DNA of 64,000 nt, taken from Squalus acanthias (lineage: Eukaryota). Below the pieces are notes generated by a model, which was not told where the DNA came from, made no database searches, and saw only the letters and a program-made list of their open reading frames with translations. A program made the translations under genes and the position numbers. The stretch covers positions 10,292,001-10,356,000 of the forward strand of contig CM059432.1 of assembly GCA_030390025.1 (NCBI GenBank), written 5' to 3'. Positions 22,968 through 64,000 of this stretch are shown piece by piece (the stretch's first letter is position 1; the number at the start of each line of letters is the position of its first letter).

Positions 22968-24009
22968 ATAGGGTTCCCCTTGTCCTCACCTTTCACCCCA
23001 CCAGCCTCCACATTCAACGGATCATCCTCCGCCATTTCCGCCACCTCCAGCGTGATCCCACCACCAAACACATCTTCCCCTCACCTCCCCTTTCAGCATT
23101 CCGCAGGGACCGCTCCCTCCGCGACACCCTAGTCCACTCCTCTACCACCCCCAGCACCCCTTCCCCTTCGCCCGGCACCTTCCCGTGCACGCGCAGGAGA
23201 TGCAACACATGCCCTTATACCTCCCCTCTTCCCACTGTCCAGGGCCCCAAACACCCCTTCCAGGTGAAACAGCGATTTACTTGTACTTCCTGCAATTTAG
23301 TATACTGTATTCGCTGCTCACGATGTGGACTCCTCTACATTGGGGAGACCAAACGCAGATTGGGTGACCGCTTTGCGGAACACCTCCGTTCAGTCCGTAA
23401 GGGGGACCCCGAGCTCCCGGTGGCCTGTCACTTTAATTCACCGCTTCACTCCCACTCTGACCTCACCGTCCTCGGCCTAATACACTGTTCCACGGAAGCT
23501 CAGCGTAAGCTCGAGGAACAGCACCTCATCTTTCGTTTAGGCACGCTACAGCCCTCTGGACTCAATATCGAGTTCAACAATTTTAGATCATAACCTCAGC
23601 TCCAATCACATTTATATTTTATTTTATCCACCCTTTTATTTGTCCCCCCCACCCTTTTTTTTCCTCCTAGAAGCTGGCAGCTGTCCTTCATTCTGCCAGT
23701 AGATTTCACACTTCATTCAGCCTTAATCTGTCACATTAACACCACCTCTAGCCTTGCATATCTCTTAATGTCTCTTAATGTCTCTTCATCTCCTCCTTTG
23801 TTCCTTTATCCCCTCCCCCTTTTCCCAGCTTTACCCTGGCCTTAAATCTATTTGATTTCCAGCTCTTCCCAGTTCTGATGAAAGGTCATCGACCTGAAAC
23901 GTCAACTCTCTTTCTCTCTCCACGGATGCTGCCTGGCCTGCTGAGTTTTTCCAGCGTTTTCTGTTGTTATTTCGGATTTCCAGCATCTGCAGTATTTTGC
24001 TATCGTATT
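22968..24009 (+). mobile_element. Penelope-like element 3' part (GIY-YIG endonuclease + terminal repeat)
   Basis: ORF 23264-23593: NLVYCIRCSRCGLLYIGETKRRLGDRFAEH...PVACHFN; flanked by the 9-bp duplication tatatccct (22959-22967 / 24010-24018). Confidence 0.9.
23871..23907 (+). ncRNA. Minimal type I hammerhead ribozyme
   Basis: agtt-CTGATGA-a-AGGTC atc GACCT-GAAAC-GTC-aact: helix I agtt/aact, 5-bp helix II, GUC cleavage triplet. Confidence 0.8.
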
Positions 24010-34549: not shown

Positions 34550-35703
34550 GCAGCCCTTCTGGAAGGCCAATTGAGTGGTGCCTCCTCCCTCGCTCCTGTT
34601 CCTCCTCCTCCTCGTCTTCTCGTCGTCCTCCTCATCTTACTCTTCCTCATAATCCTCCTCCTCCTCTCCCTCTTCCTCCTCCTGAGGTGGTCCCGCAATC
34701 CCTGGTGGCAAAGGCTGGGCCCTCATGATGGCCAAGTTGTGGAACATGCAGCAGACCACCACGAAATGGGACACCCGCTCAGCCGAGTACTGGAGGGCTC
34801 CTCCTGAGCGGACAAGGCAGCGGAACTGTTACTTCAGCAGGCCGATGGTCTGCTTGATGATGTTCCTGGTGGCAGCATGGCTCTCATTATATGAGTGCTG
34901 CGCAGGAGTGTTGGGGTTGCGGAGGGGAGTCATGAGCCAGCTGGAGAGCGGATAGCCCTTGTCTCCGACCAGCCAGCCGCGAGCTTGGCGTGGTGGCTGG
35001 AAGAGTGCGGGATGAAGGCATCATGGCTGCTGCCAGGATAGCGGGCTTTGACGGTGAGGATTCACTGTGCGTGGTCGCACACCAACTGCACATTAAGTGA
35101 GTGGTGGCCTTTGTAGTTACGGAAGATCTCAGGATTGTTATGTGGTGCCCGCAAAGCCACGTGGGTGCAGTCAATGGCGCTCTGCACCATGGGGAATCCC
35201 GCTATCCTGACAAAGCCACATGAATGCTCATCCTGCTTCTCTCTGGTGATTGGGAAGCCAATGTAGGGGTCCCTTCTCCTGCTGTAGAGCGCCTCAGTGA
35301 CCTCCCGGATGCAGCGATGGATGGTGAACTGCGAGATGTTAGCTATGTCTCCCATTGCAGACTTGAAGGATCTGCTGGTGAAGAAATTGAGGGCCACAGT
35401 GACCTCGACTGTCACTGGAAGATCTGTGGTCACCCTGGTCTGAGGCTGGAGGTCTGGTTGCAGGAGATGGCAGAGATCTGTGACCACCTCCTTGGTGAAG
35501 CGAAGCCTTCTAATACACTGCCCCTCGCTTAATTGAAGGTAGGAGAACTGCTCTCGGAATAACGTCGGAGGGTAAGGCTTCCTGTCAAGAGCCCTGATGG
35601 CCCTCCTCCTCCCTCTGCGCACATGTTCCCGTCTTTGTGGCTGCCTATGCTCCCTCTGTCGTAGATCCTGGAGGGCGAGGTTGACTGCCAGTACAGCCCC
35701 CAT
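34550..35703 (-). pseudogene. Harbinger (HARBI1-like) DDE transposase, disrupted
   Basis: CIRRLRFTKE...ALNFFTSRSF...GFPMVQSAIDCTHV...RNYKGHHSLNVQLVCD; premature stop; acidic C-terminal tract. Confidence 0.9.
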
Positions 35704-44039: not shown

Positions 44040-45929
44040 ATGGAGAGGGTGAGAGAACGAGCTCAGCGCTTCAGTGAGCGGGCCTTGGAGGCTCTGGTTG
44101 GCGCGGTGGAGCGCAGAAGATCTATACTCTGCCCTGAGAGTGGCAGGAGGCCATTGCCGCGCGACTACAGAAGCGTGTGGAGGGAGGTGGCTCAGAGCGT
44201 CTCCTCCAGGAGCATGGTGCCCAGGACCCATACTCAATGTCGCAAAAAGTTCAACGACCTCACTCGGGTCGTTAGGGTGAGTGGATTTTTTTCAATACCT
44301 CTCCATCCCTCCATCTCAACCTCACTCTATGGCCAGAGGGTCTTAAAACCCCAATGCCCAACACTCATCCAACACCTATGGCCCTCTCATGAAACACACA
44401 CGCACATTCCACACTTTGCATACATTAAGGGCTATTCAATTATGGGAGGCACATCAGGCAAGACCATGGCTGCATACATTAAGGGCTATTCAATTATGGG
44501 AGGCACATCAGGCAAGACCATGGCTGCATACATTAAGGGCTATTCAATTATGGGAGGCACATCAGGCAAGACCATGGCTGCATACATTAAGGGCTATTCA
44601 ATTATGGGAGGCACATCAGGCAAGACCATGGCTGTATATTTACTCAGACGCCGTCCTTTTTCTTGCAGGCCAAGCTATCTCATAATAGGAGACAGCAGCA
44701 ACAGACGGGTGGAGGGCAGCCTCAGCTGCAACGCTTCAGCGATTTTGAGGCGCGCGTCCACAGGATTGTGGCAAGCCAGGTGATCGGTCCCGTCGCCCCT
44801 GGAGAGGCCGACCCTGTTCGGGACAGCAATGGTAAGTTCATCACCTTTTTCTCCTCTCTCATTCCACTTGTCCCTCACAACACCAGCCTTTCACACTTTC
44901 AATCCAACTTACTAAATCGCTGCACTCCTTCCTCCCTTACTGCCCCCCTGTCCTCACGCTAAAGCCACTCTTGTACCTCCCTGCTTTCAGATGGTGATTC
45001 ACCAGCTGAGGAGACGGGCCCTCAAGCTGCCAGTGGGAGCAGAGCCACCCTCTCCCGAGGAAGCCCATGCCCACATTGGGAACACATCTTCCCTGGAGGG
45101 GAGCAGGGGGGAAGGGTCTGATGAGGGTGAAGCTCCGGGACCCAGCGGGCTGCAGCAATGCGATGGGAGTAGGGAAGCTCGGGGGCCTTCTCCCCGGAGG
45201 GAGAGTAGGCCAGCGAGACCTGCTGCACTGGATGCAGAGGAGGAGCGGCTCATCGCTGAAATGAACACCCAGGCGGTGGACATGCACACTCAGCTCATGG
45301 GTGCAGTGGGAAGGGTGCCCGAAACCATTGATGCACTGGCAAAGAGTGTGGAGCACTACGCTGCAGCACAGGCGGATGCCACGCTAAAGCTTAGTGCTGC
45401 AATTCAGTCACTGGCTGCCGTGATCCTATCTCAGACTGCTCTCATGCAGACTCAGATTGAGGCCACGCATGCACTGATTGCTGCCATTGTCACTGGTTCG
45501 GACACATTTCCCCGGGGTTCTCATGGCGCCGCAGCAGGCCAGCAATCTGTGCTCCAGCAGATTGCTCCGGATGCTAATGTGCTGCCCCGTGGGAGTGCCA
45601 GTGTGTCGGTCGAGCAGGGAGGTGCTGTCCTCTCTCAAGATGACAGCATTCCTGCTGCCACCACTGTCACTTCCCCATTGCACTTGCCACCGCCTGTAGG
45701 CCAGACTGCTGCCGCCCATGCAGAGTTGGTGCAGTCTGCAGCCGGGCCCTCCAGGCCCAGAGCTGGTCGAGGCCGTCCTTCAAGCGCATCTGCAGTCTCA
45801 GGTTCTGACAATCAGCAGCCTTCCACCAGCCTTGCTGCAGCCACTGGGGCCCCATTACGGAGGAGCAGTGGGGTGGGAAGGGGGGAAGTGCGCAAGGGAA
45901 GGAGATCACCCTCGAAGGGAAAAAAGTAG
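44040..45929 (+). pseudogene. Harbinger Myb/SANT-like protein (exons 44040-44276, 44669-44831, 44991-45929)
   Basis: MERVRERAQRFSERALEALV...WREVAQSV...QCRKKFNDL; canonical GT-AG; apparent frameshift early in exon 3. Confidence 0.85.
44418..44634. repeat. 54-bp minisatellite, 4 copies
   Basis: gcatacattaagggctattcaattatgggaggcacatcaggcaagaccatggct repeated at 54-bp spacing. Confidence 0.95.
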
Positions 45930-47765: not shown

Positions 47766-48915
47766 CTAGAAACGGCTTGTTATCAGCCGTTGACGGACGG
47801 CTCTTGCAGTTTCAACATTGTGGGCCTCCCTCCCGCCTTGGTGCTGCTGCTGATCATCCTCCTCCTCTTCCTCCTCCTCTTCCTCCTCCTCCTCCGGTGG
47901 TGCTCCAAGGCCTGGTGGCATTGGCTGGGTCCTGAGGATTGCCAGGTTATGCAGCATGCAGCACACAACTATGAAGAGGGAGACTCGCTCAGGTGAGTAC
48001 TGCAGGGCTCCTCCTGAGTGGAACTGTTGCTTGAGCACGCCGATCGTCTGCTCAACGATGTTCCTGGTGGCGAGATGGCTCTCGTTGTACCGCAGCTCAG
48101 CAGGGGTGTTGGGGTTACGGAGTGGTGTCATCAGCCAGGTGCACAGTGGATAACCCTTGTCCCCGAAGAGCCAACCACTTGGCTGATGCAGTGCCTGGAA
48201 AAGTTCTGGCACAGCAGTCTGGTGCAGGATGAAAGCATCGTGGCTGCTGCCAGGATAGCGGGCATTGACAGCGAGTATCATCTGTCTGTGGTCACAGACC
48301 AACTGGACGTTTAAGGAGTGGAACCCCTTGCGGTTTCGGAAAACCTCTGCATTCTCATGCGGTGCCCACAATGTCACATGCGTGCAGTCAATGGCGCCCT
48401 GCACCATGGGGAAGCCCGCTATCCTCGCAAAGCCCAATGCGCATTCATGCTGTTTGGCCTGGGTCATCAGGAAAGAGATGTACTGGCGTCTCCTTTTATA
48501 GAGGGCATTTGTGACCTGATGGATACAGCAATGGACCACGAACTATGAGATATTGGCAATGTCCCCAGTAGCTGCTTGAAAGGAGCCGGTGGCATAAACG
48601 TTCAGAGCCACTGTGATCTTCACTGCCACCGACAGAGACGTCCTGGTCCTCAGTAGAGGCTGTAGATCTGGCTACAGCAGGTGGCAGAGCTCAGTGACCA
48701 CCTCCTTGCTGAAGCGCAGCCTGCGCAAACACTGCTCCTCAGATAAATTAATGTAGGATAATTGTTGCCGAAATACCCTGGGAGGGTAAGGTCTCCTGTG
48801 CAGAGGCCTATTGGCCCTCCTCTGTCTGGCCATGATTACCGCTCTCTCTCTGCGTCTCTGTTGCCTCCGATTTTGCAGGTGCAGGATGACGCCCCGAATC
48901 AGTGCAGCCCCCAAA
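47766..48915 (-). pseudogene. Harbinger (HARBI1-like) DDE transposase, disrupted
   Basis: GFPMVQGAIDCTHV...RKGFHSLNVQLVCD...[10 protein letters not shown]...GDKGYP...TRNIVEQTIGVLK...CCMLHN; in-frame stops in the N-terminal half. Confidence 0.92.
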
Positions 48916-50454
48916 GTCTCTTGGTAATCCAAGTAATGAAGGTCAAATCCAAAAGTACCTGCAAAGTGATGCTCAGTAGCCAAAACTACTTCACACAGCG
49001 TTGACTCTATGCAGAAATCTCTCCTTCTCTCTCTCAGAATCTCTCTCTCTGTCAGAATGAGTGGTGCAAAAATGTCTACCACAGAAAAAGCCAGGAAGAG
49101 GCCGCCTTTAAATAGCGCCTCCCCAGCCCCTCACCGACTGAGAAACGTTCCAGTCTCCCTGTCGTTGCTTGCGCCAGGCGGAAAGGAGAGGGGCACCACT
49201 CAATATCCGGTCCGGGGCGCCACAAGGGCGTTGCATGCTTGACTGACGTCAAGATCTGCGGACGCAGGAGATCGGGGCGGTAGTGTTTAGCGCCGCCGCA
49301 AAATGCCTGGTCAATTTCGCGAGCGGCGCAGACATCACCACGCCCGGGCGCTAGTTGCTTTGCGCCCCATTAGCGCCCTCTTAAGGCGCTAACAGGAGGC
49401 GCAAACCAACTGAATTTTCCCCCCTTAGAATTCTTACGCCTGGATAAGAGTTGAAAAAAAGTTTTTAAAAAAAATTTCAGTCATTTATCATTTAAAAATA
49501 CTTCAAAAAAAGGTAAGTTTATTTTTAGCCCTGTAAAAAACTTTAATTATTATTTTCAAAAAATTAAATTTTTGTTTAAGATATTGAATTTATTGTAATT
49601 TCAACTAATTTTAAAAATGTGATTTTTAATAAAATGTATTTAATGTTTAGAAGTGTTTTGGGATGATCTCCATTCATATATTTGACAGGTCTATCTGTCA
49701 AGTGTATGAAGGGAGATTCCCTTCTTTGATTGGCTCCCCATGGCCCACGTGATCCCAGGGACGCTTGCGAACCGCCTGCGCCTCTGGGATACGTGGGCCC
49801 TGCGCACTTGGAGTTCGAGAGGCCCAGCATCGGGACTATACGCACCTCGGGAGCCCTCAGGTAAGTGCGTAGAATTTTTTCCAGATCGGAGGACTCCGCA
49901 TGCGGGAAGCCTCCAATCGGAAAATATGGCCCATTACATGATAATGGCGAGGATTTTTTTAAAAAAATCTGAAATGGGGTTCTTGATCTAAGGCGAATAA
50001 AACAAAAACCACGTGTCAGAAAGTATCATTGCTGCAAGCTGGCTGTTTTGGAAGCTGTTAGCAGTATAAGGTTTTATTTGAATCTCACCCTTTCACTTTT
50101 AAGTAGTACATTTAGAAAGGCCTAACAGTACAGGTAATAGGAAATGCCATAACACATGTCAAAGCAATGCGCCCTCACAGCTCTGGATACACCACAGCCT
50201 CGTATATGTGATAACCAATGTCTTAGCCACTCTCCACTGCACTGGCCTCAGGTCTCTCTTAATAGGATTTCCCAAGTTGTTCTTTGTCTGTCAGGTTCCT
50301 CTGTTTCATGCTTCAGGGACTGGCGTTGTAATTGCAAAGGCAGTTCATCGATCTCTAGCCACTGGATTGGACAAAAGGATTGAGTTGCTTCTGGTTTTAT
50401 TAATTGACTGCGGTGAGTTTTTTTTGCGTTAGCCCAGCACAGCTCCTTCTTCAT

Positions 50455-51775
50455 GCTGCGGATGCTGGAAATCTGAAATAGAAACAGAAAATGCTGGAAA
50501 CGCTCAGCCGGTCAGTCGGCATCCATGGAGAGAGAAACAGAGTCAAAGGGCTGGTTTTTGATACTGGGGCGGGTTGGGGTCGTGTCATCCGCATTTTGTG
50601 TTATCCACCCGCCTGCAATTGGATGTGGGAGATTGATGCAATTTTCACTTAATTGGGCAATTGAGTTCCAGCATGTGGGAACCCATGAACTAATTAGTGG
50701 TTTCAGTCTGAAAGTTGCCTCTGATGATGTCATCATTGCAGGTCAGAGACTGCCTGGTCTCAGAGATTGCCTGGCTTTTGCTGTGAGAGGACCTGGATGC
50801 AAAATGAGCAGCATCTCAGAGAGAGAGAGAGAGAATTTTTTTTGCATCCAGGTCCTCTCACAGCAAAGGCCAGGCAGTTTCTGAAGACATTCAATGCAGC
50901 AGCATCAGAGGCGACTTTCAGACCTAATACTACTACTACCTTCATCACATCTCTGTTGTAATAGTGGACCTGCAGCTGATAATCAGCTATCCACTTGTGC
51001 TCCCGCCAGGTTTCACTGGCGTGTTTCACATCAGGCGTGCTTCATGTCGGAAAAGGGTTAAACTAGCTAAAACTTTTCAAAATGGCATTACAGAGCCAAT
51101 TTAGGGCTTGTTAAGGGCTTTAATGGCCTCTCCCGCCTCTTGGAGGCGGGACGGAGTCGGGAACACCGTACACGATTTTATCAAAATTGCGTGGAGGCGG
51201 GATGGAGTCGGGATGGGGTCGGGACCCCCGAATCTGCAACTTTAACCCCCCACACGCCTCCAAACCCGACTCCACGGGTCATTGAAAATCCAGCCCAAAG
51301 TTTCAGGTGGGTGACCCTTCGTCAGAACTGGAAATAGTTAGTGATGTAACAGGTTTTAAGCAAGTGCAGAGGCAGGGAAAGGAGGGGAGGAGAGGAAAGA
51401 GCAAAAGGGAAGGTCTGTGACAGGGTGGAAGGCTGGAGAGATTAAATGACAAAAGGGATGATGGTGCAAGGCGAAAGGAGATGGTCAACTCTGTTTCTCT
51501 CTCCACAGATGCTGCCTGACCTGCTGAGCATTTTCCAGCATTTTCTGTTTTAATTGCGGATATCCAGCATCCGCAGTGTTTTGCTTTTGCAAAAGGAGAT
51601 GGTAATGGGACAAGTAAAGGAACAAAAGATGGGTCTGGAAGAGGTGTCATTGGGAATAGCAGAATCATCAACAGCTGCCGTTAGAAAAAATGGGGGCAGA
51701 GGTTATGATCTGATCTTTCCCTGCCACTGCACTTGTTTAAAATCTGTTATATTTCTAACTTTTTTCAGTTCTGAC
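50455..51775. mobile_element. Penelope-like terminal-repeat fragments in both orientations
   Basis: gatgctgcctgacctgctgag...ccagca repeats as at 23910-24000; hammerhead core on minus at 51300-51331; partial core ttctgac at 51769-51775. Confidence 0.7.
50548..51296. mobile_element. Harbinger-type MITE, family M2
   Basis: TIRs gggctggtttttga / tgaaaatccagccc; TSD aaa; internal inverted repeat ~50705-50925. Confidence 0.85.
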
Positions 51776-54700
51776 TGTAATGTATTACCACTTGGTTTGT
51801 CACATGGTTTAATCACATGGTTTGGTATGAGCATGCTCAGTTCGCTCTGGCCTAATAAACAAGCACACGGACTAGCAACTCATCGTGTCTCGGTCCTTCA
51901 TTTATTCTACCCACATATATTACATTTTGGCGACCAGGATGGGATCCCAAAGCCATTTTTAGGGATCATGGAAGGACACAGTGTTCAACCTTCGAGTGGA
52001 CAAGTTTACGGTAAATTTGTGACACCTAAACTGAATTTATGCAATGTTTTACTGTTAATGCTGACGCAGAATTGCCTGTGCTTCGCCTTCGCGTGTATGT
52101 ATACACAGCAACAGCAGCGTTGATTCACACATGTACACAGGTAGCGCGCTGAGTCACTGTTCAACGGGATCGGGACAATCATGGCCGCGCCGACGGGGTT
52201 CATCGGAAACCTCGGCATGTGTGACCAAGCTCGCGAACCATTCAGTTCTTACATTGAGCGGATGGAGATATTTTTTAGGGCCAATAACATTATTGAGACC
52301 GAAGGTGCAGATGAGAATGTTCAAGCTCAAAATAAAGTAATTCGTGAACAGAAGAAAGAATTTTTCTAACGGAGATCGGGCCAGATGTCTACGGAACGTT
52401 GACAAACCTACTCACGCCAGGGAAAGCGAAGGATGTGTCGTTTGAAGACATTGTCGAGAAACTCGAGGACCATTTCGACCCAAAACCATTAGAAATAGCA
52501 GAGTTTGGTACCAGAAACCAAAAGTGAGTACATTGTAGCTCTTAAGAACTTGTCTTTGCATTGTAACTTCGACACATTTTTTGATCATGCGTTGCGAGAT
52601 AAGTTTGTGTGTGGACTGGTGGATGAGCGCACACAGTCCAAGTTACTGAACACTCCGAACCTAACGTTTGACATAACATGCAAAATTGCCCTATCTATGG
52701 AGATGGCATCTAAGAATGCTAGGGAGCTCCGTCCAACTCAAGTGACTGGTGCAGCTGAGGTCTACAGTCACAAAGCCACCGGCCGAACCTAAAGCTGTGA
52801 GACCTAGTCAAAAGTATGTCGGTGAGAGCAGTTCAGTGAATTGTTATCGCTGCAATGGAAATCACTCACCACAGTCCTGCCAATACAGAAATGTGAAGTG
52901 TTTTCACTGCCAGAAGCAAGGCCATATTTCAACAGCTTGCAGAGCTAGACCTAAAGCAGGAAGTAAGAACCATTCTAGTGGCAATGCAAAGCAGCAACAA
53001 CAAAAGTGAGGAATTCACAATATTGAAGTGAGCACACCTGATGTGGAAGAACTAGGCATCTACAGTATCTATGCCACTAGCGGCAACGCTAGCAGTCGTG
53101 AGAAAGACTTCCGTACAAAACTTTTGATCCACAACCAATATATTGATGTGTGTATCGACATGGCGGCGGACTGTTCTATCATGAGTAAGGACACATATGA
53201 GAGTAAGTTTAATCAAATACCACTTACAAAGAGTATCGTAGAGTTAAAAACCTACTCTGGAGAAATCCTAGATACATGTGGACAAATGGAATGTACAGTT
53301 CAGCACAATGGCCAGTCAGTAAAGCTGCCTATTATTGTAGCGAGTTACAACAACAGGCCAACCGTCATGGGCAAAGACTTGAGAAAGTTAAAACTAGACT
53401 GGAAAAACATCTTCAGTGTAGATGCTTCAAAGAAGTGGCTCAGCACTATGCTGAACAAATACGAAAGCAAGTTCACCGACAGTTATGAGGACATCACTAG
53501 GTATGACGTGCATATCCACATCACGTCTAACGTGAAGCCTGTCTATTGTAAGGTAAGGCCGGTCCACTATGCGTTGAAAAGTCAGGTGGAGGAGGAGCTA
53601 GCGAAGCTCAGAGAGAACAGAGTGCTAGTAAAAACTGGCAAAAGTGAATGGGCTACCCTGATTGTGGTAGTGCGCAAAGCAGTCAAAACTGTACGCTTGT
53701 GCGGTGACTACAAAGTTACGATCAACCAAGCAGTTGACGATGAGCAGCACCCGTTACCTACAACGCAAGATTTGTATGCAGCACGCTCTGGGTCAAAGGT
53801 TTTCTCCAAGCTTGACCTGTCGCACGCTTACGCTCAGCTGAATGTTGACAAAGAGAGTCAACAGTATCTCACCATCAACACACACAAGGGACTGCACTCA
53901 TACACCAAGCTGCCGTATGGTGTAAAGTTCTCCTCCAAAATCTTCCAGGCTACGATGGATAAGATTTTGCAAGGAGTTACAAATTGCTTATGCAATCAAG
54001 ACAATGTGCTGATCGCAACAAGCAGCGAGGAAGAAAATCTAGAAATGTTACATGTACTGCTTCAAAGGTTGAATTCCCACAATGTCAAGTTGAAAAGGAG
54101 CAAATGTGCTTTTGTGCAGCCCGAGGTTGTGTACCTTGGTCTGAAAGTTGATGCAACCAGTGAAGGAAAAGGTTGATGCTGTCATCAATGCTCCAAAGCC
54201 ACAGAACGTGTCTGAGTTAAGACCTTTCCTTGGAATGGTCCAGTACTATGCACGATTCTTACCTGAGTTAGCGACCATGTTAGTTCCATTGCACGAGCTC
54301 CTCAAAAAGGATGTCCAGTGGAAATGGACGAAAGCGCAACAGGAAGCTTACGACGCTTGTAAGAGAAGTCTCACTAGCAATGCTCTACTTGTGCACTACG
54401 ACACAGAGCGTGAGCTTAAGTTAGCGTGTGATGCTTCTAGCTATGGTGTGGGAGCTGTCATAAGCCATGTACTGGATGACAGCCAAGAGAAACCAATCGC
54501 ATTCACATCGTGAACCCTCATAAAGTGCGAAAGAAACTACGCGCAAATTGAAAAGGAAGCACTCGCCATAGTGTTTGGAATCAAGAAATTCCAACAGTTT
54601 CTGATTGACAGAAAGTTTATCCTGATAACCGATCACAAACCGCTCCTAGAAATATTGGGGCCCAAATCTGCCATCCCTGCAATGGTCGCATCAAGAATGC

Positions 54701-55160
54701 AACGTTGGGCAGTGTTGTTGTCACAATATGACTACACGATTGAATATCGCACTTCAAAGCAAAACGCAATTGCAGATGCCTTGTCCAGGTTGCCACATGA
54801 GGACTCGTGTGTTGGGAGTGAAGGTGAGATTTTCACGCTGGGCGCAGTTGACAAAGACTTTCCCGTGAATGCAACTGAGATTGCAGATGAGACTCAACAG
54901 GACTCAGTACTGAAAAGAGTGTATGGAAACACCTTGAATGGATGGACTGATCAGTGTCTGGACACAGAGTTGAAACCATTCCATAACCGTCGTACTGAGC
55001 AAGGTTGTATCAAGTGGGGAAACAGAGTGATGGTACCTACTTCTTTGAGTTCAGAACCAAAACAAAGCAGCTCAAATATTGGTTCAACCCAAAACCTTCT
55101 TTAAGGAGATCAGGAAGGCTCCGCAAGCCTGTTATTAAATTGGATTTGTAGTTCATTTGA
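51776..55160 (+). mobile_element. Gypsy LTR retrotransposon copy 2 (5' LTR 51776-51924, PBS, gag, PR, RT, RNaseH; no integrase; 3' LTR lost)
   Basis: TG...CA LTR matching 40420-40536; PBS tggcgaccaggatgggat (51928-51945) matches the tRNA-Ser(GCU) 3' end as I recall it; gag LRDKFVCGL and knuckle CFHCQKQGHISTAC; RT ORF 53028-54176. Confidence 0.92.
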
Positions 55161-55719
55161 TATGTTCGAGTGCCGTATCTGTGCAACAGCTGACCCACAA
55201 AAAGATAAGCAATTGATTCAGACAATCGTAAATTGAGATTTTACAGAAAAGGGGCGTAAATCTCTTGGCAATTGTTGTAAAACACTGAAGATAAGGAAGT
55301 CATTTAAAGTAGCACATTTAAATAGAATAAACGTCAAAAGTGTTTTTCTATTCAGACCAGCAGATCTCCCATGAGTAGCTGAAAAGTTGCAAAGCGAAGG
55401 TTCTGGGGTGTGGGAGCAGGACAGGGGCGCACATCGCCACTGAAAAGATTTGAAAGAAACCTCCTTCAGTGAAGGAAAGAACTAACATTGTTGAAGCAAT
55501 TTTCAAATCCTCAGGGTGATTCAAGGCATTTCTTAGCCAATGAATGACTTTGTTTGGATGTGTGGTAACTCTTGCTATGTAGGCACAAGCAGCAGCAAGG
55601 TTCCAAAAAAACGGCAAATGAGTTAAAGGACTAGTTAATCTGTTCTGGGTGATGTCTGAGGGACCAGTGTCAGCCAAGGCTTCTCTCTGAGCTCTTTATT
55701 GAAATGGAGCCGCGGGATA

Positions 55720-55960
55720 TCCGCGCTCCTTCCAATTCTGGCCTCTTGCGCAGCCCCGATTTTCATCGCTCGACCATTGGCGGCCGTGCCTTCAGCTACC
55801 TGGGCCGCTGAGCCCCGGAATTCATCCCTAAACCTCTCCACCTCTCTACCTCTCTCTATCTCTCTCTCTCTCCTTTAGGACGCTCCTTAAAACCTACCTC
55901 TTTGATCAAGCTTTTGGTCGCCTGTCCCAATAGCTCCTTAAATGGCTCGGTGTCAACTTC
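55720..55960 (+). mobile_element. L2 LINE 3' fragment
   Basis: Similar to 19505-19825 (ctccttaaaacctacctctttga). Confidence 0.7.
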
Positions 55961-56054
55961 TGACGATAGTGTAAAACGGGCGATAGTGGATCAGCCGACA
56001 TTATATACATCATCGGATTTTCCTTGCCGGTGACTTCAATAACTTCCTAAGTGC

Positions 56055-56750
56055 AATAACAACAACAACAACTTGTATTTATATGGCACCTTTAATATAG
56101 TACAACATCCCCAGGCGCTTCACAGGAGCGTTATCAAACAAAATTTGACACCGAGCCATATTGGAGCTATTAGTGACCAAAAGCTTGGGTCAAAGATGTC
56201 GTTTTTAAGGAACATCTTAAAGGAGGAGAGAGAGGTAGAGAGGTTTAGGGAGGGAATTCAGAGTTTAGGGCCTAGGCAGCTGAAGGCACGGCCGCCAATG
56301 GTGGAGAGATTAAAAAATGGGGCTGCACAAGAGGGCAGAATTGGAAGAGCGCAGAGATCTAGGAGGGTTGTGGGGCTGAAGGCGATTACAGAGATAGGGA
56401 GGGGCGAGGCCATGGTGTGATTGGAATACAAGGATGAGAATTTTAAAATCGAGGCGTTGCCGGACTGGGAGCCAATGTGGGTCAGTGAGCACAGGGGGTG
56501 ATGGGTGAACGGGACTTGGTGCGAGTTAGGGTGCGGGCAGCAGAGTTTTGGATGAGCTCAAGCTTACAGAGGGTGCAAGGTGGGAGGCCGGCCATCAAGA
56601 GCATTGAAAGAGTCGAGTCCAGAGGTAACAAAGGCATGGATGAGGGTTTCCGCAGCAGATGAGATGAGGCAGGGGCCGGAGTCGGGTGATGTTGTGGAGG
56701 TGGAGGCAGGCGGTCTTGGTGATGGAGCGGGATACGGGTTCGGAAGCTCG
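56055..56750 (-). mobile_element. L2 LINE 3' end with (gtt)n tail
   Basis: KLELIQNSAARTLT...HWLPVRQRLDFKILILVF...GLAPPYL. Confidence 0.85.
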
Positions 56751-57664
56751 TCAAGAACATCTGCCTCAACATCTGTGATGGATCAAAATATTTACCTAGC
56801 CCTGCCAACTTCTTTGTGCGGAACTTTTCCATACATTTTTTTGTAAGTGTATTCCTGTTCTTGCCTGCGTCGGCAAAAATTGATGTGTTGGATTTTCAAC
56901 ATCAGTTATAATGAGTATTACTTGTAGTTCAAATATGTTGCAATGTATACGAATCCTCGGGCACAGATTATGAAAAATGCAATTCTTGTAGTTCACCTGA
57001 TTAAGATCTACAACCCTTTGGGCAAAGCCACTTAACTGAAGTGAACGGAACGCATATTTATAATTATCATGCCATTTACATTATTTCATTACACAAAGCA
57101 GATTGAGAACAGGCCGGCTCAAATTATAGAATGACTGCTGCTGACGCTGTAGGTAACTTTATTAGAAACTGTAGCTCAGTAATGGTTTAATCAAAGGATA
57201 TATGTTGAACAAGTTTGATGACAGCTTCTGGCTGTGAAACACTGTGTTACCCCACGGGAGGCTGCCCTAGTTTTTGCTTTTTGTTCGTTTTTCTTTGCTT
57301 TGGAACCTGATTACAGAACGCCCAGCAAGTGGTAGATGTGAGACTTGGGTGCAGTTTTATCTGGTTCCTCTTGCAGCTTGTGTGGACTATCACTTGCTGC
57401 GTGATTACCAAATTACACACCGAGTCGGAGCGGCTGACGGCCGCCTTTTAGAAAGGACCGTGGAGAAATGAATGAACGAGCGGCCGATGTTCCAGGTAGC
57501 GCACGGGACACGCCGATTAAATGCAACCTGGCATTCCGCGCCCGTTCAGTCGGGTTGCCAACCTTTCCAGGATTGCCCAGGCAGCGCCAGGGATTGAAGA
57601 TTAATTTCCTGGGCACTGCCGCGAGCAACACCCCCGGGAGAAAAAAAAAATCATTGTGGGTACA

Positions 57665-58118
57665 GTGTCAGCCAGTGGCTCAGTGGGTAGCACACTCGCC
57701 TCTGAGTCAGAAGGTTGTGGGTTCAAGTCCCACTCCAGAGACTTGAGCACATAAATCTAGGCTGACACTCCAGTGCAACACTGAGGGAGCGCTGCACTGT
57801 CGGAGCCGTCTTTCAGTTAAACCGAGGCCCCCGTCTGCTCTCTCAGGTGGACGTAAAAGATCCTCATGGCACTATTTTGAAGAAGAGCAGGGGAGTTATC
57901 CCCGGTGTCCCGGGGCCAATATTTATCCCTCAATCAGCATCACCAAAAAACAGGTTATCTGGTCATTATCACATTGCTGTTTGTGGGATCTTGCTGTGTG
58001 CAAATTGGCTGCTGCGTTTCCTTACGTTACAGCAGCGACTCTACTTCATTGGCTGTAAAGCGCTTTGAGACGTCCGGTGGTCGTGAAAGGCGCTATAGAA
58101 ATGCAAGTCTTTCTTTCA
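57665..58118 (+). mobile_element. Deu-domain SINE
   Basis: tRNA-like head, Deu core, tail. Confidence 0.85.
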
Positions 58119-58489
58119 TTTAAAAAAATACTGGGGTAGAGTTTCCGCTTTGGGCGCAAACGGCAAACTGGGTGCAAATTGCGCTTGAAATGAAATCATG
58201 GTTCTAGTTACCGCCTAAGCTCACTTGCATAATCACAAACCTTACGTCTTCCGTGGACCAGCACAATCGGGCAGCGTGATAGAACGTAATCCTTTATTTT
58301 TATTTCTTTGCATTGAAAAATATTCCTTGAGTGTTAAGAGCGGTAACCTGGTGCAGATTTATTAATACAGCTGAACATGGGTTTATCACATAAAAGAGGC
58401 ATGTTTAATACAGCGTCCAGTCCTCCACCTGTGAGTAACCCGATTTTAAAATCACTGAAAATAACTTTAAAAAAAAACTATACTGAACT

Positions 58490-58662
58490 ATTGCTGGAAA
58501 TCTGAAATAACAGAAAGTGCTGGGAACACTCAGACAGGTTGGGCAGCATCGAGGAGAGAGAAACAGAGTCAACTGAAGAAGGGTTCGACCCGAAACGTTG
58601 ACTCTGTTTCTCTCTCCTCGATGCTGCCCGACCTGCTGAGTGTTTCCAGCACTTTCTTTTGT
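58490..58662. repeat. Long hairpin of inverted Penelope-like repeats with a hammerhead core in the loop
   Basis: Arms ~58512-58573 and 58597-58656 are near-perfect inverted repeats around CTGAAGA-a-GGGT tcg ACCC-GAAAC. Confidence 0.8.
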
Positions 58663-58692
58663 TAGACTCAACCATTTACTAGTTTCATTCTT

Positions 58693-58880
58693 AGGGGCAA
58701 AAATTGGGTTGCTTTGTGCCTCCTGAGGGGGCACTAGGCCCCTCCCTTTTAACTAGCGTAGCACGTAGTGCCATGATATTGAATGGTAGCACCCCAAGAG
58801 GGAGGGGGAGCACTTCCCAGTAGCACCCTGCCTCCTGCTTGGAACACTACCATTCAATTTCTGGCACAGGGGCACTAACT
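58693..58880. mobile_element. MITE remnant related to 20469-20987
   Basis: Shares ggttgctttg.gcctcc and ccccaagagggagggggagc.cttcc. Confidence 0.65.
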
Positions 58881-58887
58881 TTTATTG

Positions 58888-59035
58888 ATACTAGCTTTTT
58901 ATTCCAGATTTATTTAATTAATTGAATTTGAATTCCCCAGCTGCCATGCTGGAGATTTGAACTCATGTCTCCAGATCATGAGTCCAAGCTTCTAGGATTA
59001 CTAGCCCAGATGACATTACCACTATACTACCGTAC
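58888..59035 (-). mobile_element. tRNA-derived SINE head (second family)
   Basis: Minus strand has an A-box-like tagtatagtgg and a B-box-like gagttcaaatc. Confidence 0.55.
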
Positions 59036-59041
59036 CCCTAT

Positions 59042-59520
59042 AAATGGAAACATTTTCTCTATGTCTATCCTATCAAGCCCTTCATAATTTTAAAGACCTC
59101 ATCCTCAGCTTTCTCTTTTCTGGAGAAAAGAGCCCCAGCCTGTTCGGCCTTTCCTGATTACTATATCCTCTCTTGGTATCATCCTTGTGAGTTGTTTTTT
59201 GCACCTTTTCCAGTGCCTCTATATTCTTTTTATAATATGGAGACCAGAACTGCTCACAGCGCTCCAAGTGTGGTCCAACCAAGGTTCTGTATAAGTTTAA
59301 CATAACTTCTCTGCTTTTCAGTTATATCCCTCTAGAAATCAACCCCAGTGCTGTGTCTGCGTTTTCTTATGACCTTATTAACCTGCATTGCTACTTTCAA
59401 TGATTTGTGTATCTGTATCCGTAGATCCCTCTGACCCTTTATCCGTTTCGGCACTTATTATCCAAGCTGTGTGTGGCCCCCACTTATTCTTCCTGCCAAA
59501 ATGTACCACACCACACTTAC
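59042..59520 (-). mobile_element. CR1 fragment
   Basis: MLNLYRTLVGPHLERCEQFWSPYYKK. Confidence 0.8.
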
Positions 59521-60164
59521 AGGAAGGTAAGTAAAAAAGAGTTTACCTACCATTTCTTCGGCGGCCTTCAGTGGGCTCTTGAAGTTGCCGCTGGTTAGGA
59601 CACGGTAGAACTGGGAAAACTAGTTGGAGCTTGCACACCCATGATCCGCCTTGTTTTTGACCAATTTCCTACAGGGGGCCTAAATCAGGCGTTAGGCCTC
59701 TGATTTGCATATGCCAAGAGGTTTAACGCCTGAGAAGAAGCCTTTGCCAATATGGCGACGCCCATATGCCAGATCGGCGCCGATCGGGCACCGGACTTTG
59801 CATCCTGAAATTGGTCCTCATTGCCCCCATTTTTACGCCCAGAAAATGGGCGCAACGAGGACCAATTTCCCCCCAACCCTCCGCCCCACCATTGACTTTA
59901 TTCTGTGGACTGAATATGATTGAAATGCTTGCCAGGGGAAAAATTATTTAAGAACAGCACGTGTTAATTTTCATAGAAAATATACAATAATTAATGGTGC
60001 AAGTCGATTATTCATTGTGAAGCTGTTTTACATAGCTTGCATTTTTAATTAATCTGTTGTCCTTTGAACACTTCAACCGTAAGCACATTGAATGACTGGG
60101 TGTGGAATAATAGTTTCCCAGTTAGACGTAGAGCTAAAGAGGATCGAGATTTGTTTCCTTTCAG

Positions 60165-60630
60165 AGTGTCCACCATGGTTCAGTGGGTAGCATCATTATC
60201 TCTGATATCATAAAGGTTGTGGGTTCAAATCCCACTCCAGAGACTTAAGCACAAAAATCTAGGCTGACACTCCAGTGTAGTACTGAGGGAGCGCCAAACT
60301 GTTGGAGGTTCCGTCGTTCAGATGAGATGTTAAACCGAGGCCCCGTCTGCCCTCTCAGGTGGACATAAAAGATCCCATGGCACTATTTTGAAGAATGGTA
60401 GGGGAGTTATTCCTGGGGCCAATATTTATCCCTCACTCAACATCACTAAAACAGATTATCTGGTCATTATCACATCGCTATTTATGGGAGCTTGCTGTGT
60501 GAAAATTAGCTGTCGCGTTTCCCACATTACAACAGTGACTACACTTCAAAAAGTACTTCATCGGCTGTAAAGCGCTTTGGAGGTCTGGTGATCATGAAAG
60601 GCGCTATATAAATGAAAGTCTTTCTTTTTC
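60165..60630 (+). mobile_element. Deu-domain SINE
   Basis: tRNA-like head, Deu core, tail. Confidence 0.85.
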
Positions 60631-61042
60631 CTGATTGATTCAGTAAACTCTATACAGTTAGATCTTGTGTCAAACCTGCATGCAATGGCCTGAGGGGTTT
60701 AATTCAGTCCTGGCATCTCTGAAACATTGCAGTCGCTTCTGATGCATGCGATGTTACACAACAGATCCCCAGAAGAAATACTTTGTTTTTTTTGCTCCAG
60801 TTTTCAAGGTCAGGTGCTGAACCACGACGTGTTAATAATATAAACTAAAAATACACTTTATCTGTACAGAATCATAGTTATAACTATTATTTGCCTGTAG
60901 GACATCTCATTGCGCATTCATGTGTCATTTCGTTTTTCAATATTAGAATGAGGGAATGGTTTGTCTTCTACCTGTGCCTGTCACAATTAACCTTCAAAAG
61001 CCAAAAATTTAAGAACAAAAATATTGTAAACTAGGACTACTT

Positions 61043-61462
61043 TAAGAAAGACTTGCATTTATATAGCGCCTTTCACGACCACCGGACATCTCAAAGCGCT
61101 TTACAGCCAATGAAGTACTTTTGGAGTGTAGTCACTGTTGTAATGTGGGAAATGCAGCAGCCAATTTGTACACAGCAAGCTCCCACAAACAGCAATGTGA
61201 TAGCGACCCGTTAATCTGTTTTTGTTATGTTGGTTGAGGGATAAATATTGGCCAAGACACCAGGGGTAACTCCCCTGCTCGTCTTTGAAATAGTGCCATG
61301 GGATCTTTTACGTCCACCTGAGGACAGACAGGCCTTGACAGTGCAGCACTCCCTCAGAGAGTCAGCCTAGCTGTATGTGCTCAAGTCTCTGGAGTGGGAC
61401 TTGAACCCACAACCTTTTGACTCAGAGGCGAGTGTACTACCAACTAAGCCACAGCTGACACT
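61043..61462 (-). mobile_element. Deu-domain SINE with internal deletions
   Basis: Tail, partial core and head on the minus strand. Confidence 0.85.
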
Positions 61463-61731
61463 TTGACATTTAGACATTTAGCTGACGTTTAGAGAAAGTA
61501 ATGTTGTTTGTGCCATACATACCGATCAGAGCTGGTTTTCCCTACTCCTTTTGCCATCCTGGATTTTGCTATGCTTCACACACTTTGCCTCACCAAGGTG
61601 ACACACTGGAGATGTGCGCCTGCAAGCTTTGCAACTACTGTTCCATAGTGTAAGAACTAAGAATTTTTGGAAGCTGGAAAACCTCATTAGGCGCAACAAG
61701 CATTTCTGAGAGATTGGGTTTACGACATTAT

Positions 61732-62290
61732 ACGAACATAGGAACGTACGAACAATGACGGACAGGTAAAGGACCCTCTGGTCCATCCAGCCTGACCCAC
61801 ACAATTGCGATACCTTGTGTATCACAATATATAGACTCCCCAGCCCACCCGAAACCAGGTGATCTCCTGGGAGAGGTGAAAAAAACAGATAAAAACCTAG
61901 GCCAATTTGGGGAAATAAATCTGGGAAATTCCTCTCCGACCCATCTAGGCGATCGAAACTAGTCCAGGAGATCACTCTGGCCCTGAATTCCCTGCAGTGC
62001 CTACCTTCTGTAAGAGGTGATCTCCGCCCCAGCCAGAAACAGGTCCAGCTCTCGCTAGAAGGAATTCAGCGAGTCCGCGTCCACCGCACGAGACGACAGC
62101 CTGTTCCCGAGGTCCACTATTCTCTGGGAAAAGAACCACCTCCTGAAATCTAACCTAGCTCTGGCCTTACACAACTGAAAATTGTAACCGTGGTCCTCCC
62201 TAACCTATTTATTGGAACAAACTGTCAACTGGAACACAATCTATTCCCTTCATTATCTTATAAACCTCAATCAGATCACCTCTAAGTCTA
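61732..62290 (-). mobile_element. CR1-type LINE 3' end; resumes at 63727-63805
   Basis: Minus strand reads RGDLIEVYKIM...RTTV...WFFSQRIVDL; gaacatag-like tail. Confidence 0.65.
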
Positions 62291-63726
62291 GATGTCACTT
62301 TAATTCTCCGCACCATTCCCACTCAGACCTCACCGTCCTCGGCCTCTTGCATTGTTCCACTGAAGCTCAGCGTAAGCTCGAGGAACAGCAGCTCATCTTT
62401 CGATTAGGCCCTTTAGAGCCTTCTGGACTCAACATAGAGTTCAACAATTTCAGATCATAACCTCGGCCCTATCATATATATATTTTTTATCCACACTTTT
62501 TGTTTGTGCTCTGTTCTTCTCTCCCACATGGCAGCTGTCTTTCATTCTGCCAGCGCAATTTACACTTCATCTGAGCCATCCTTTGTTTCTTAACCTGTCC
62601 CATTACCATCCCCTATTGCCTTGAATATCTCTCAATGTCTCTTAACCTCTCCTGCCTTCTATCCTATCACAGACCTTCCCTTTTGTTCTTTCATCCCCTC
62701 TCCCCTTTCCCAGCCCCTACACTTGCTTAAAAATCTGTTCCATTTCCTGCTTATTTCCAGTTCTGACGAAAGGTCATCGACCTGAAACGTTGGGCAGAAT
62801 TTTCATTGAGCCGTGGAGGCGGGTTTGGAGGCGGGACTGGATTGAAAATAGCAGATTCGGGGGTCCCGACCCCATCCCGCCCCTAACCCGCCTCCATGCC
62901 AGTTTCACAGGAGGCGGGTACCCGACCTGTGCTGGGACCCGCCTCCCCGAGGCGGGAAGGGGATTAGTGCCAATTAACTGCCTGTTAACAGGTAGTTAAC
63001 AGGCAGTTTTTTGCCTAATCCCTATTTTTATGCCTGAAATGTGGGCTCTCTGACAGGTCCCAACCACGCCGGTTTAGCGAGGCGGACCGTGGGTCTGCAG
63101 GGGTTGGAGGGGTCGATATATCCGGTGGGCAGGTGAGTGATGGGTGCATGTGTGCAGAGGTAGGTGTGTAAGGTAAGTGTAAAGTGTGGAAAAAAGTTTT
63201 ACTTACCTTAACTTCCTCCTGCAGGTGTCAGCCCTTCAGGTCTCGGGAGTCAGAAATCTCACTGGCACAGAAAGCAGAATGGCCGTTAAGCTGTCAAAAG
63301 CTGCAGCCTCTGCTTTTTGTTCTGCAGAGATCTCTAAATCAGCCTGAGAGGAAGGAATTAACTTAGAGGACAGACTGTCAGTGTTTGACAGCTTCAAGGA
63401 GCTGTCAAACGCTGATATTTCATCTGTCAAAAGCTCTTGACAGATGAAATGTCAATCTGTGACGTCACCTGTTGCCGGGTGGCCCTTGATTGGCCTGCTA
63501 AGCCCGCTGGGCGGGCTCAACAAGGTCAATCAAGTGAAAATACAGTGGGTTGGCCACAAGTCGATGGAGGCGGGACTACAACCCAAAAAGTGGGAGTCCC
63601 GCCTCCATCACGTCCCCAGTTTCAAAATCTGTTTCTCTCTTCACAGATGCTGCCTGACCTGCTGAGTATCTCCAGAATTTTCTGTTTTTATTTCAGATTT
63701 CCAGCATCTGCAGCATTTTCTTTTTG
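62291..63726 (+). mobile_element. Penelope-like 3' fragment with hammerhead core (62759-62791), split by a MITE
   Basis: CHFNSPHHSHSDLTVLGL...EQQLIFRLG matches the ORF at 23264; perfect 14-bp duplication cacctctaagtcta (62277-62290 / 63727-63740). Confidence 0.9.
62792..63629. mobile_element. Harbinger-type MITE, family M2 (right tip deleted)
   Basis: First ~110 bp align with the reverse complement of 51190-51296 (ccgtggag.cgggtttggaggcg...gcagattcgggggtcccgaccccatcccg). Confidence 0.75.
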
Positions 63727-64000
63727 CACCTCTAAGTCTACGTTTCTCTAAAGTGTAGAGTCCCAACTCTTTTAGCCTATCTTGACAACTAAGATGCTTT
63801 AGACATCATGACGAACTGCGCCCAATCAGCGCAAGCCACCTAAAACAGGCATTAGGCCCCCTGAAGATGTTAATTTGGGGCCTAACACCTGGCGAAGGAT
63901 CCTCGTGTAAAATTAGTTACCGATAAGCAGGGAAGGCTTCAGGTCTCCGTCGCTCAGGATTCTTCAGTGGCTCCCATGGCCGCCAACTGCAGGTAAGTCT

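What the first reader, a model, noticed from the sequence alone, without database searches (positions are those of the whole stretch)
50548..63629. Same MITE family inserted at the hammerhead cleavage site of two separate Penelope repeats
Seen: at 62759-62791 (+) the motif agtt-CTGACGA-a-AGGTCatcGACCT-GAAACGTT is followed immediately by a MITE (gggcagaattttca...). At 51331-51297 (-) the motif agtt-CTGACGA-agggtcacccacct-GAAACTTT is followed immediately by a related MITE (gggctggattttca..., TSD aaa/ttt). Position and relative orientation are identical, and the Penelope repeat resumes after each MITE. The MITE ends align but their interiors have diverged. Established: Penelope-like elements carry minimal hammerheads that cleave after the NUH triplet, and some Harbingers show target-sequence preference. 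Inference: either a DNA transposon preferentially targets and disables a retroelement ribozyme site, or an old composite element was amplified.
Basis: partly seen in the sequence, partly recalled or inferred. Interest (0 to 1): 0.75.

Follow-up and report, generated by a model that had tools for sequence, protein, structure and literature searches.

The report
Harbinger hotspot at Penelope hammerhead motif
Hundreds of separate cut-and-paste Harbinger transposons in this vertebrate genome sit on the same three bases of a predicted ribozyme in another mobile element, likely only because that very common spot half-matches the DNA word they prefer everywhere, and a ribozyme-free site in a LINE is filled about 25 times more often per copy.

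Summary
Both window sites carry a Harbinger-derived MITE that duplicates the predicted NUH triplet of a Penelope minimal-hammerhead motif. The two MITEs share termini but belong to different subfamilies, and their closest relatives lie elsewhere. Genome-wide, 553 such junctions exist against 50,902 empty motifs (1.1% filled, about 800-fold over uniform). Both orientations, several subfamilies, matched variant duplications and trees reject one amplified composite. The elements have a palindromic target preference resembling zebrafish Harbinger3_DR's. The hammerhead end is a middling match present in over 50,000 copies. A ribozyme-free LINE site that matches better is 27% filled (382 of 1,404). 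Hammerheads that had already lost the CG palindrome are filled four times more often. This is DNA-sequence targeting, not ribozyme targeting, although a 2- to 12-fold excess over the motif model is unexplained. Side result: one duplicated triplet is often replaced by an A/T-rich one, consistent with bases carried from the donor site. The scan noted this hotspot before, in this genome and others; those unreviewed notes agree and gave the carry-over lead.

The parts
62293..62460 (+). 3' end of a Penelope ORF (C-terminal 55 aa and stop) of a 5'-truncated copy
   Evidence: 52 of 55 residues identical to the C-terminus of the 1004-aa ORF of L248, which has weak RVT_1 and GIY-YIG hits
62461..62791 (+). 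Penelope 3' repeat, part before the insertion
62759..62791 (+). minimal hammerhead motif: stem I 5' strand, CUGANGA, extra A, stem II, GAAAC-GUU; the last three bases (62789-62791) are the predicted NUH triplet and the left duplicated triplet
   Evidence: descriptor in PMC4209133
62792..63629 (+). Harbinger-derived MITE, ~845-bp subfamily; right terminal repeat truncated by a ~14-bp deletion
   Evidence: nearest relative 93% identical, at a non-hammerhead site
63628..63729 (+). Penelope repeat resumes
51297..51660 (-). Penelope 3' repeat, part before the insertion (interrupted by an inverted tail fragment at 51486-51591)
51297..51329 (-). decayed minimal hammerhead motif (C.C mismatch in stem II; GUU changed to UUU); 51299-51297 is the left duplicated triplet TTT
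50548..51296 (-). Harbinger-derived MITE, ~750-bp subfamily, both terminal repeats present; its first 40 bp nearly match one end of the coding Harbinger L261
   Evidence: nearest relative 97% identical, at a non-hammerhead site
50545..50547 (-). right duplicated triplet TTT
50453..50544 (-). Penelope repeat resumes
23871..23907 (+). uninterrupted hammerhead motif of the same Penelope family (empty-site control, GUC triplet)
58569..58603 (+). uninterrupted hammerhead motif variant inside a long hairpin (empty-site control)

Best explanation
Two different non-autonomous Harbinger elements inserted independently at the same three bases of two Penelope copies, likely because the DNA there partly matches the palindromic target word that this Harbinger group uses across the genome and is present in more than 50,000 copies. 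Shown: the group has terminal repeats GGGC(T/A)G(G/A)ATTTT, a 3-bp duplication, coding relatives with a Myb/SANT gene and a DDE_Tnp_4 transposase, and a target roughly R-G-A-S-W-C / W-W-W / G-W-S-T-C-Y. The hammerhead end GAAAC-GTT-AACTC has the conserved A/T at +-5, C at -2 and a purine at +2, but a disfavoured A at -4 and G in the core. Inferred: a Myb-plus-transposase complex reads double-stranded DNA, so the overlap with the ribozyme's cleavage triplet is a coincidence of letters. An insertion would break stem I, but most hit copies are truncated or mutated, so little effect on Penelope activity is expected. CpG decay of the motif (GTT to ATT) likely improves the target.
For: Independent events: at least three subfamilies plus 1.8-3.2-kb Myb-bearing elements sit at the site. 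Both orientations occur (5:3 and 8:3). Hammerhead-site MITEs are rejected as a clade in both subfamilies (AU p=5e-78 for 9 of 35 rows; p=1e-31 for 12 of 86 rows). Where the left triplet starts with A the right does too in 13 of 13, against 6 of 35 otherwise (p=1e-7; 48 of 69 loci with both ends). Target word: 67 of 96 flank-blind elements have identical 3-bp duplications and 0 of 96 have 4-bp ones; 64 unique targets give a palindromic logo. A matrix trained on 62 sites without hammerhead or LINE-hotspot rows scores the hammerhead site 6.5 bits (9.5 with ATT) and the LINE site 15.5 bits. Filling follows that order: 0.87% (411 of 47,318), 3.4% (142 of 4,137), 27% (382 of 1,404). Three other recurrent sites have 8, 4 and 4 rows against 4 for the hammerhead among 96. 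Extended palindromic targets are published for Harbinger3_DR and PIF/mPing (PMC3016246, PMC2836001).
Against: The matrix under-predicts the hammerhead site: calibrated filling is 0.07% for 5-7 bits, 0.27% for 7-9 bits and 1.4% for 9-11 bits, against 0.87% and 3.4% observed. It over-predicts the LINE site (74% against 27%). A position of equal score 126 bp upstream in the intact Penelope L248 had no hit in the flank-blind sample, while the hammerhead had 4 of 100 (small numbers, and many copies are truncated before that position). Age is a confound: filled motifs also carry more of the disfavoured C-to-T CpG product (11 of 98 against 1 of 100, eye count), so part of the fourfold ATT effect may be age. 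No transposition assay was run.
Confidence: 0.88

Rival explanations
1. The Harbinger complex recognises something specific to the ribozyme (a DNA hairpin from stems I/II, an R-loop or the RNA) on top of the sequence word, and so selectively inactivates Penelope ribozymes.
For: 2- to 12-fold excess over the calibrated matrix. Position is exact: on contig C1, 46 hammerhead-type rows at GAAA+4 against 3 at other offsets (eye count). All 4 Penelope-flanked insertions among 100 flank-blind loci are at this base.
Against: Only 1.1% of motifs are filled, against 27% at a LINE site with no hammerhead stems. Motifs that lost the helix III palindrome are filled four times more often. Window site 2 was a decayed motif with a better matrix score (11.5 against 6.5 bits). 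Exact positioning is equally seen at LINE hotspots.
Confidence: 0.06
2. One or a few Penelope-plus-MITE composites were amplified by retrotransposition or duplication.
For: Same position and orientation at the two window sites. In the ~845-bp subfamily the hammerhead label is somewhat clustered (6 changes; 18 of 500 shuffles as low), though this reflects how the comparison rows were sampled. Some listed pairs look duplicated (e.g. the two C12 rows 99 kb apart).
Against: Different subfamilies at the two window sites; nearest relatives at non-hammerhead sites; both orientations; AU rejection of monophyly; element lengths from 293 to 1,359 bp among 48 loci plus 1.8-3.2-kb elements.
Confidence: 0.02
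3. Insertion is less specific than it looks, and the pattern comes from selection or open chromatin favouring insertions inside dead repeats.
For: Many targets lie in other repeats; regional density was not controlled.
Against: Tolerance cannot give single-base precision or a palindromic logo, and 65 of 96 flank-blind targets are singletons.
Confidence: 0.04

Closest known systems
Zebrafish Harbinger3_DR / Harbinger3N_DR (PIF/Harbinger)
   Same: Two-gene design (Myb-like plus DDE), 3-bp duplication, and a long palindromic target; the published consensus AAACACCWGGTCTTT (PMC3016246, passage seen) has the same C and G next to the core and A and T at +-5 as the logo found here.
   Different: Here the core is A/T-rich (WWW, not CWG), +-4 is C or G, and copy number is about 50,000. 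Single positions in other repeats are filled up to 27%. The original paper (PMC2290759) could not be read.
PIF/Pong and Tourist-like MITEs (maize PIF, rice mPing)
   Same: Non-autonomous copies moved by ORF1 plus transposase, 3-bp duplication, extended target (9 bp in plants, 15 bp in vertebrates; PMC2836001, passages). A staggered cut through the duplication leaving 3-nt overhangs is proposed (PMC4561436), and donor TTA is carried to Cas9-cut sites (PMC11254759).
   Different: These MITEs are 600-870 bp, the core is not fixed to TTA/TAA, and one-sided triplet replacement appears here in natural insertions; I did not see that reported in the passages read.
Minimal hammerheads in pLTRs of metazoan Penelope-like elements (Cervera and De la Pena 2014, PMC4209133)
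   Same: Core boxes, extra base between A9 and stem II, short helix I, palindromic 15.2-16.2 with no loop, two copies about 3.2 kb apart around an RT/GIY-YIG ORF, and many solitary copies.
   Different: Copy number here (over 50,000) exceeds the 4,000 and 9,000 given for coelacanth and Xenopus; the two parts read mention no cartilaginous fish and no DNA-transposon insertion. Activity of this variant is untested; in the paper a single motif showed no cleavage and dimers low activity.

Membership tests
PIF/Harbinger non-autonomous element (MITE) | terminal inverted repeats | tested here: met
   site 2 has both; site 1 has the left one and a truncated right one; 96 of 100 family members have both ends
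PIF/Harbinger non-autonomous element (MITE) | 3-bp target duplication | tested here: met
   67 of 96 identical at 3 bp, 0 of 96 at 4 bp; TTT/TTT at site 2; lost at site 1
PIF/Harbinger non-autonomous element (MITE) | coding relative with the same termini carrying a DDE_Tnp_4 transposase and a Myb/SANT gene | tested here: met
   L261:3377-7654, 4,278 bp, AAA/AAA; PF13873 E=1.6e-10, PF13359 E=4.5e-28 on a 254-aa frame; not shown to be intact; L254 and L256 similar
PIF/Harbinger non-autonomous element (MITE) | extended palindromic target preference | tested here: met
PIF/Harbinger non-autonomous element (MITE) | mobilisation by the two proteins; precise excision | not testable with these tools
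   needs a cell assay
Penelope-like element | single ORF with RT and C-terminal GIY-YIG | tested here: met
   L248 1004-aa ORF, RVT_1 E=2.8e-5 and GIY-YIG E=1.2e-3, both under Pfam's curated cut-offs; window tail 52 of 55 identical; no RT tree was built
Penelope-like element | direct terminal repeats (pLTRs) each holding the hammerhead motif | tested here: met
   two motif copies 3,190 bp apart in L248
Minimal hammerhead ribozyme | core boxes CUGANGA and GAAA, NUH triplet, extra base before stem II, palindromic 15.2-16.2 | tested here: met
   the two boxes were required by the search pattern, the rest was not; site 2 has lost the palindrome
Minimal hammerhead ribozyme | helices I and II supported by covariation | tested here: inconclusive
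   92% and 95% of cells paired in 22 distinct rows, slid controls 10-44%, but covariation equals shuffles (254 of 500); no Rfam hit
Minimal hammerhead ribozyme | self-cleavage after the NUH triplet | not testable with these tools
   position predicted from the numbering scheme only
   about 1-4% of insertions; LINE site filled 25-fold more; damaged motifs preferred

The most novel reading that the evidence does not exclude
In natural transposition these Harbingers carry three bases from the donor site and often write them over one copy of the new duplication, so fixed-sequence hotspots (the LINE site and this hammerhead) record donor triplets and let target choice and end joining be measured on tens of thousands of natural events. 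At the LINE site 14 of 47 elements have unequal triplets, none shares a non-reference one, and A-to-T changes are about 3.7-fold above the flanks; the hammerhead site alone was not significant. The lead came from earlier unreviewed notes.
Probability: 0.5. Interest if true: 0.5.

Novelty: new member of a known kind. Interest (0 to 1): 0.3.

Why it matters
As it stands, this is a clean natural example of one mobile element's sequence preference creating single-base hotspots inside other mobile elements. It warns that 'insertion at a functional site' needs a per-copy control: the ribozyme site looks special only because it is abundant. The useful by-products are a target logo for a very large vertebrate Harbinger group, a LINE position that is 27% filled, and fixed-sequence sites where donor-base carry-over can be counted. 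If a ribozyme-specific excess survived a better model it would be a new kind of conflict between mobile elements, but I put that at about 6%.

Tried and rejected
Rfam scan of the window: no hammerhead family at E<=1, only microRNA-like hairpins under their cut-offs. Monomer folding did not give the hammerhead fold, as expected for a motif without helix III loop, so it is uninformative. Covariation in 22 motif rows was no higher than shuffles. The top-scoring transposase loci belong to sister Harbinger groups with other termini; the matching coding elements were found instead by extending MITE ends that lacked a partner. No solved structure matched the Penelope ORF. The stricter test of triplet replacement (two or more changes) was borderline at the LINE site (3 of 92 against 3 of 506, p=0.05; 46 of 65 loci scored) and negative at the hammerhead (2 of 80 against 5 of 520, p=0.24; 40 of 69 scored). 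A repeated flank seen in 14 of 100 rows first looked like an amplified composite; it is a terminal-repeat-like word inside an unrelated repeat over 3 kb long, so the element count is somewhat overstated. Paper searches: Harbinger + target site + hammerhead + Penelope gave one unrelated review; two searches gave none; searches listed nothing on this hotspot by title or abstract start. The library lacks most subscription papers, and repeat databases were not available.
Full report
Observation. Both sites are as described. At 62759-62791 (+) the motif AGTT-CTGACGA-A-AGGTC-ATC-GACCT-GAAACGTT is followed by a MITE from 62792. At 51329-51297 (-) a decayed version ending GAAACTTT is followed by a 749-bp MITE (51296-50548) with TTT on both sides. 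Empty copies at 23875 and 58573 show that the host continues with (A/G)ACTCTG, so the duplicated triplet is the predicted NUH triplet itself. At site 1 a deletion of about 14 bp removed the end of the right terminal repeat and the right triplet. The MITEs align only over their first 114 bp at 82%.

The host is Penelope. Upstream of site 1 lie 55 codons that are 52 of 55 identical to the end of a 1004-aa ORF in L248. That ORF has weak RVT_1 and GIY-YIG hits, both under the curated cut-offs, and lies between two copies of the motif 3,190 bp apart. This matches the minimal hammerheads of PMC4209133 (parts 1 and 2 of 4 read: abstract, results, discussion, start of methods; supplements with the alignments not seen). 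Helices I and II are 92% and 95% paired in 22 distinct rows, but covariation is no higher than shuffles, and Rfam has no hit. Cleavage is predicted, not shown.

The insert is Harbinger. L261 is a 4,278-bp element with the same terminal repeats, an AAA duplication, a Myb/SANT frame and a DDE_Tnp_4 frame. One of its ends nearly matches the start of the site-2 MITE. Elements of 1.8-3.2 kb at hammerhead sites keep Myb-like sequence but gave no transposase match. The 11-letter terminal pattern occurs 105,413 times with a control of 5,608, so about 50,000 elements. Exact matching understates this. An unrelated repeat with look-alike words overstates it (18 of the first 100 rows by eye).

Enrichment. 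The junction pattern matches 553 times with control 0; the empty motif matches 50,902 times. That is 1.07% filled and about 800-fold over uniform insertion. With a free 0-30-base gap there are 1,083 matches. On contig C1, 46 hammerhead-type rows sit at exactly GAAA+4 and 3 at other offsets (eye count); most other rows belong to a different repeat. In the first 100 places of a flank-blind terminal pattern (11,818 matches; all 100 on C1 between 2.7 and 37 Mb), 4 are at the hammerhead triplet and none elsewhere in four Penelope references.

Independent insertions. Clustering by interior put the two window MITEs into different subfamilies, each also found at other sites. For trees I dropped 8 rows (4 with false right ends, 4 duplicates) and rows under 60% coverage or of 1 kb or more. 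Hammerhead-site copies are rejected as a clade in both subfamilies (9 of 35 rows, AU p=5e-78; 12 of 86 rows, p=1e-31), occur in both orientations (5:3, 8:3), and the window copies' nearest rows are at non-hammerhead sites (93% and 97% identity). Against this, the label is mildly clustered in the smaller subfamily (18 of 500 shuffles as low), because comparison rows were sampled from one end type. Among 48 of 69 hammerhead loci with both ends, triplets were GTT/GTT 26, ATT/ATT 12, GTT/ATT 5, CTT/CTT 1 and 4 others. An A on the left goes with an A on the right in 13 of 13 against 6 of 35, so many hosts had mutated before the insertion.

Why this spot. Of 96 flank-blind elements with both ends, 67 have identical 3-bp duplications. 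Their 64 unique targets give a palindromic logo: A at -5 (90%), C/G at -4, A/T at -3, C at -2 (78%), an A/T-rich core, and the mirror image. This resembles the Harbinger3_DR consensus quoted in PMC3016246 (passages) and the extended preference described in PMC2836001 (passages). A matrix from 62 sites (71 minus 2 hammerhead and 7 LINE-hotspot rows) scores the common hammerhead site 6.5 bits, its ATT variant 9.5 and the LINE site 15.5. The LINE site lies about 40 bp after an FADD reverse-transcriptase motif (the label CR1-type is recalled, not from a call) and matched my pattern by accident. It is filled in 382 and empty in 1,022 copies, 27%, or 25-fold more per copy. Three further-or-equal recurrent sites had 8, 4 and 4 of 96 rows. 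Motifs with CATT, which lack the helix III palindrome, are filled at 3.4% (142 of 4,137) against 0.87% (411 of 47,318) for the rest. Window site 2 scores 11.5 bits.

Results against this reading. The calibrated matrix predicts 0.07-0.27% for the common variant and 1.4% for ATT, so the hammerhead is used 2- to 12-fold more than predicted, while the LINE site is used less than predicted (74%). The training set is small, positions are treated as independent, and the 484-kb background is repeat-rich and not random. Filled motifs look older (C-to-T at the same CpG in 11 of 98 against 1 of 100 empty rows, eye count), which confounds both the ATT effect and the filling rates. I regard the residual as model error and age, but did not show that.

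Side result, from a lead in earlier notes. At the LINE site, where the host triplet is AAA, 14 of 47 elements with both ends (of 65 loci) have unequal triplets and none shares a non-reference one. A-to-T changes are 18 of 336 triplet bases against 11 of 758 flank bases (p=7e-4). By eye, 11 of 100 filled rows and 0 of 100 empty rows have a T in that triplet (p=7e-4; these rows overlap the loci). At the hammerhead the matching test was not significant (6 of 234 against 5 of 522, p=0.10), and the stricter two-change test was borderline or negative. Carry-over of a donor 3-nt overhang would explain this. It fits the staggered-cut model of PMC4561436 and the donor TTA seen at Cas9-cut sites in PMC11254759 (passages only). 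Error-prone gap filling is not excluded.

Literature. The four-term search for Harbinger, target site, hammerhead and Penelope returned one unrelated review. Searches returned nothing; some searches were seen as listings only, apart from the papers named above and PMC8151067 (passages, nothing of use). The Harbinger3_DR paper itself is not held. Six earlier unreviewed notes of this scan describe the same hotspot in this and other genomes with the same conclusion; they are not independent support.

Verdict. A real and precise hotspot made by many independent Harbinger insertions, best explained by known extended target preference meeting a very abundant repeat. New member of a known kind; interest 0.3.

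Noticed in passing
G000, LINE RT site; L211-L235 and L268-L307: One position about 40 bp after the FADD motif of a LINE reverse transcriptase is filled by these Harbingers in 382 of 1,404 pattern-matching copies (27%), with many subfamilies and both orientations, including coding elements (L254, L256).
   Followed up: yes
L211-L235, L268-L307; also L001-L030, L308-L347: One of the two duplicated triplets is often replaced by another A/T-rich triplet (14 of 47 unequal at the LINE site; A-to-T excess p=7e-4; not significant at the hammerhead). Possible carry-over of donor bases.
   Followed up: partly
window 51486-51591 (+), flanked by a 12-bp direct repeat at 51474-51485 and 51592-51603: A short Penelope tail fragment is inserted in inverted orientation into the site-2 host and starts one base before the predicted 5' end of the hammerhead cleavage product. 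It could be a reverse-transcribed cleaved RNA, which would support cutting in vivo.
   Followed up: no
L001-L030, L308-L347: 36 of 69 filled hammerhead copies lack the usual upstream Penelope motif within 70 bp, so homology seems to begin close to stem I. Penelope 5' truncation may cluster there.
   Followed up: partly
window 58549-58621: Hammerhead variant inside a long hairpin made by an inverted copy of its own downstream tail, which extends stem I; Rfam scores it weakly as a microRNA precursor.
   Followed up: no
window 34682-35547, 47937-48650, 2110-2545: Harbinger transposase remnants; the first two lie near GGGGGAAAATTC-type termini at 36210 and 49423, a sister group whose coding members show similar target flanks.
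   Followed up: partly
L169 (G000:C1:196207000-196216900): Two back-to-back hammerhead motifs on opposite strands each carry their own Harbinger insertion (3,243 bp and 824 bp), 65 bp apart.
   Followed up: partly
L061-L065, L074, L075, L083, L084: A young repeat over 3 kb long (98-99% identical copies) contains two outward-facing words that mimic the terminal repeat and inflate pattern counts; its identity was not determined.
   Followed up: partly
window 44363-44686: Tandem array with a 54-bp period.
   Followed up: no
window 50779-50866: A 27-bp inverted repeat around a CT microsatellite inside the site-2 MITE.
   Followed up: no
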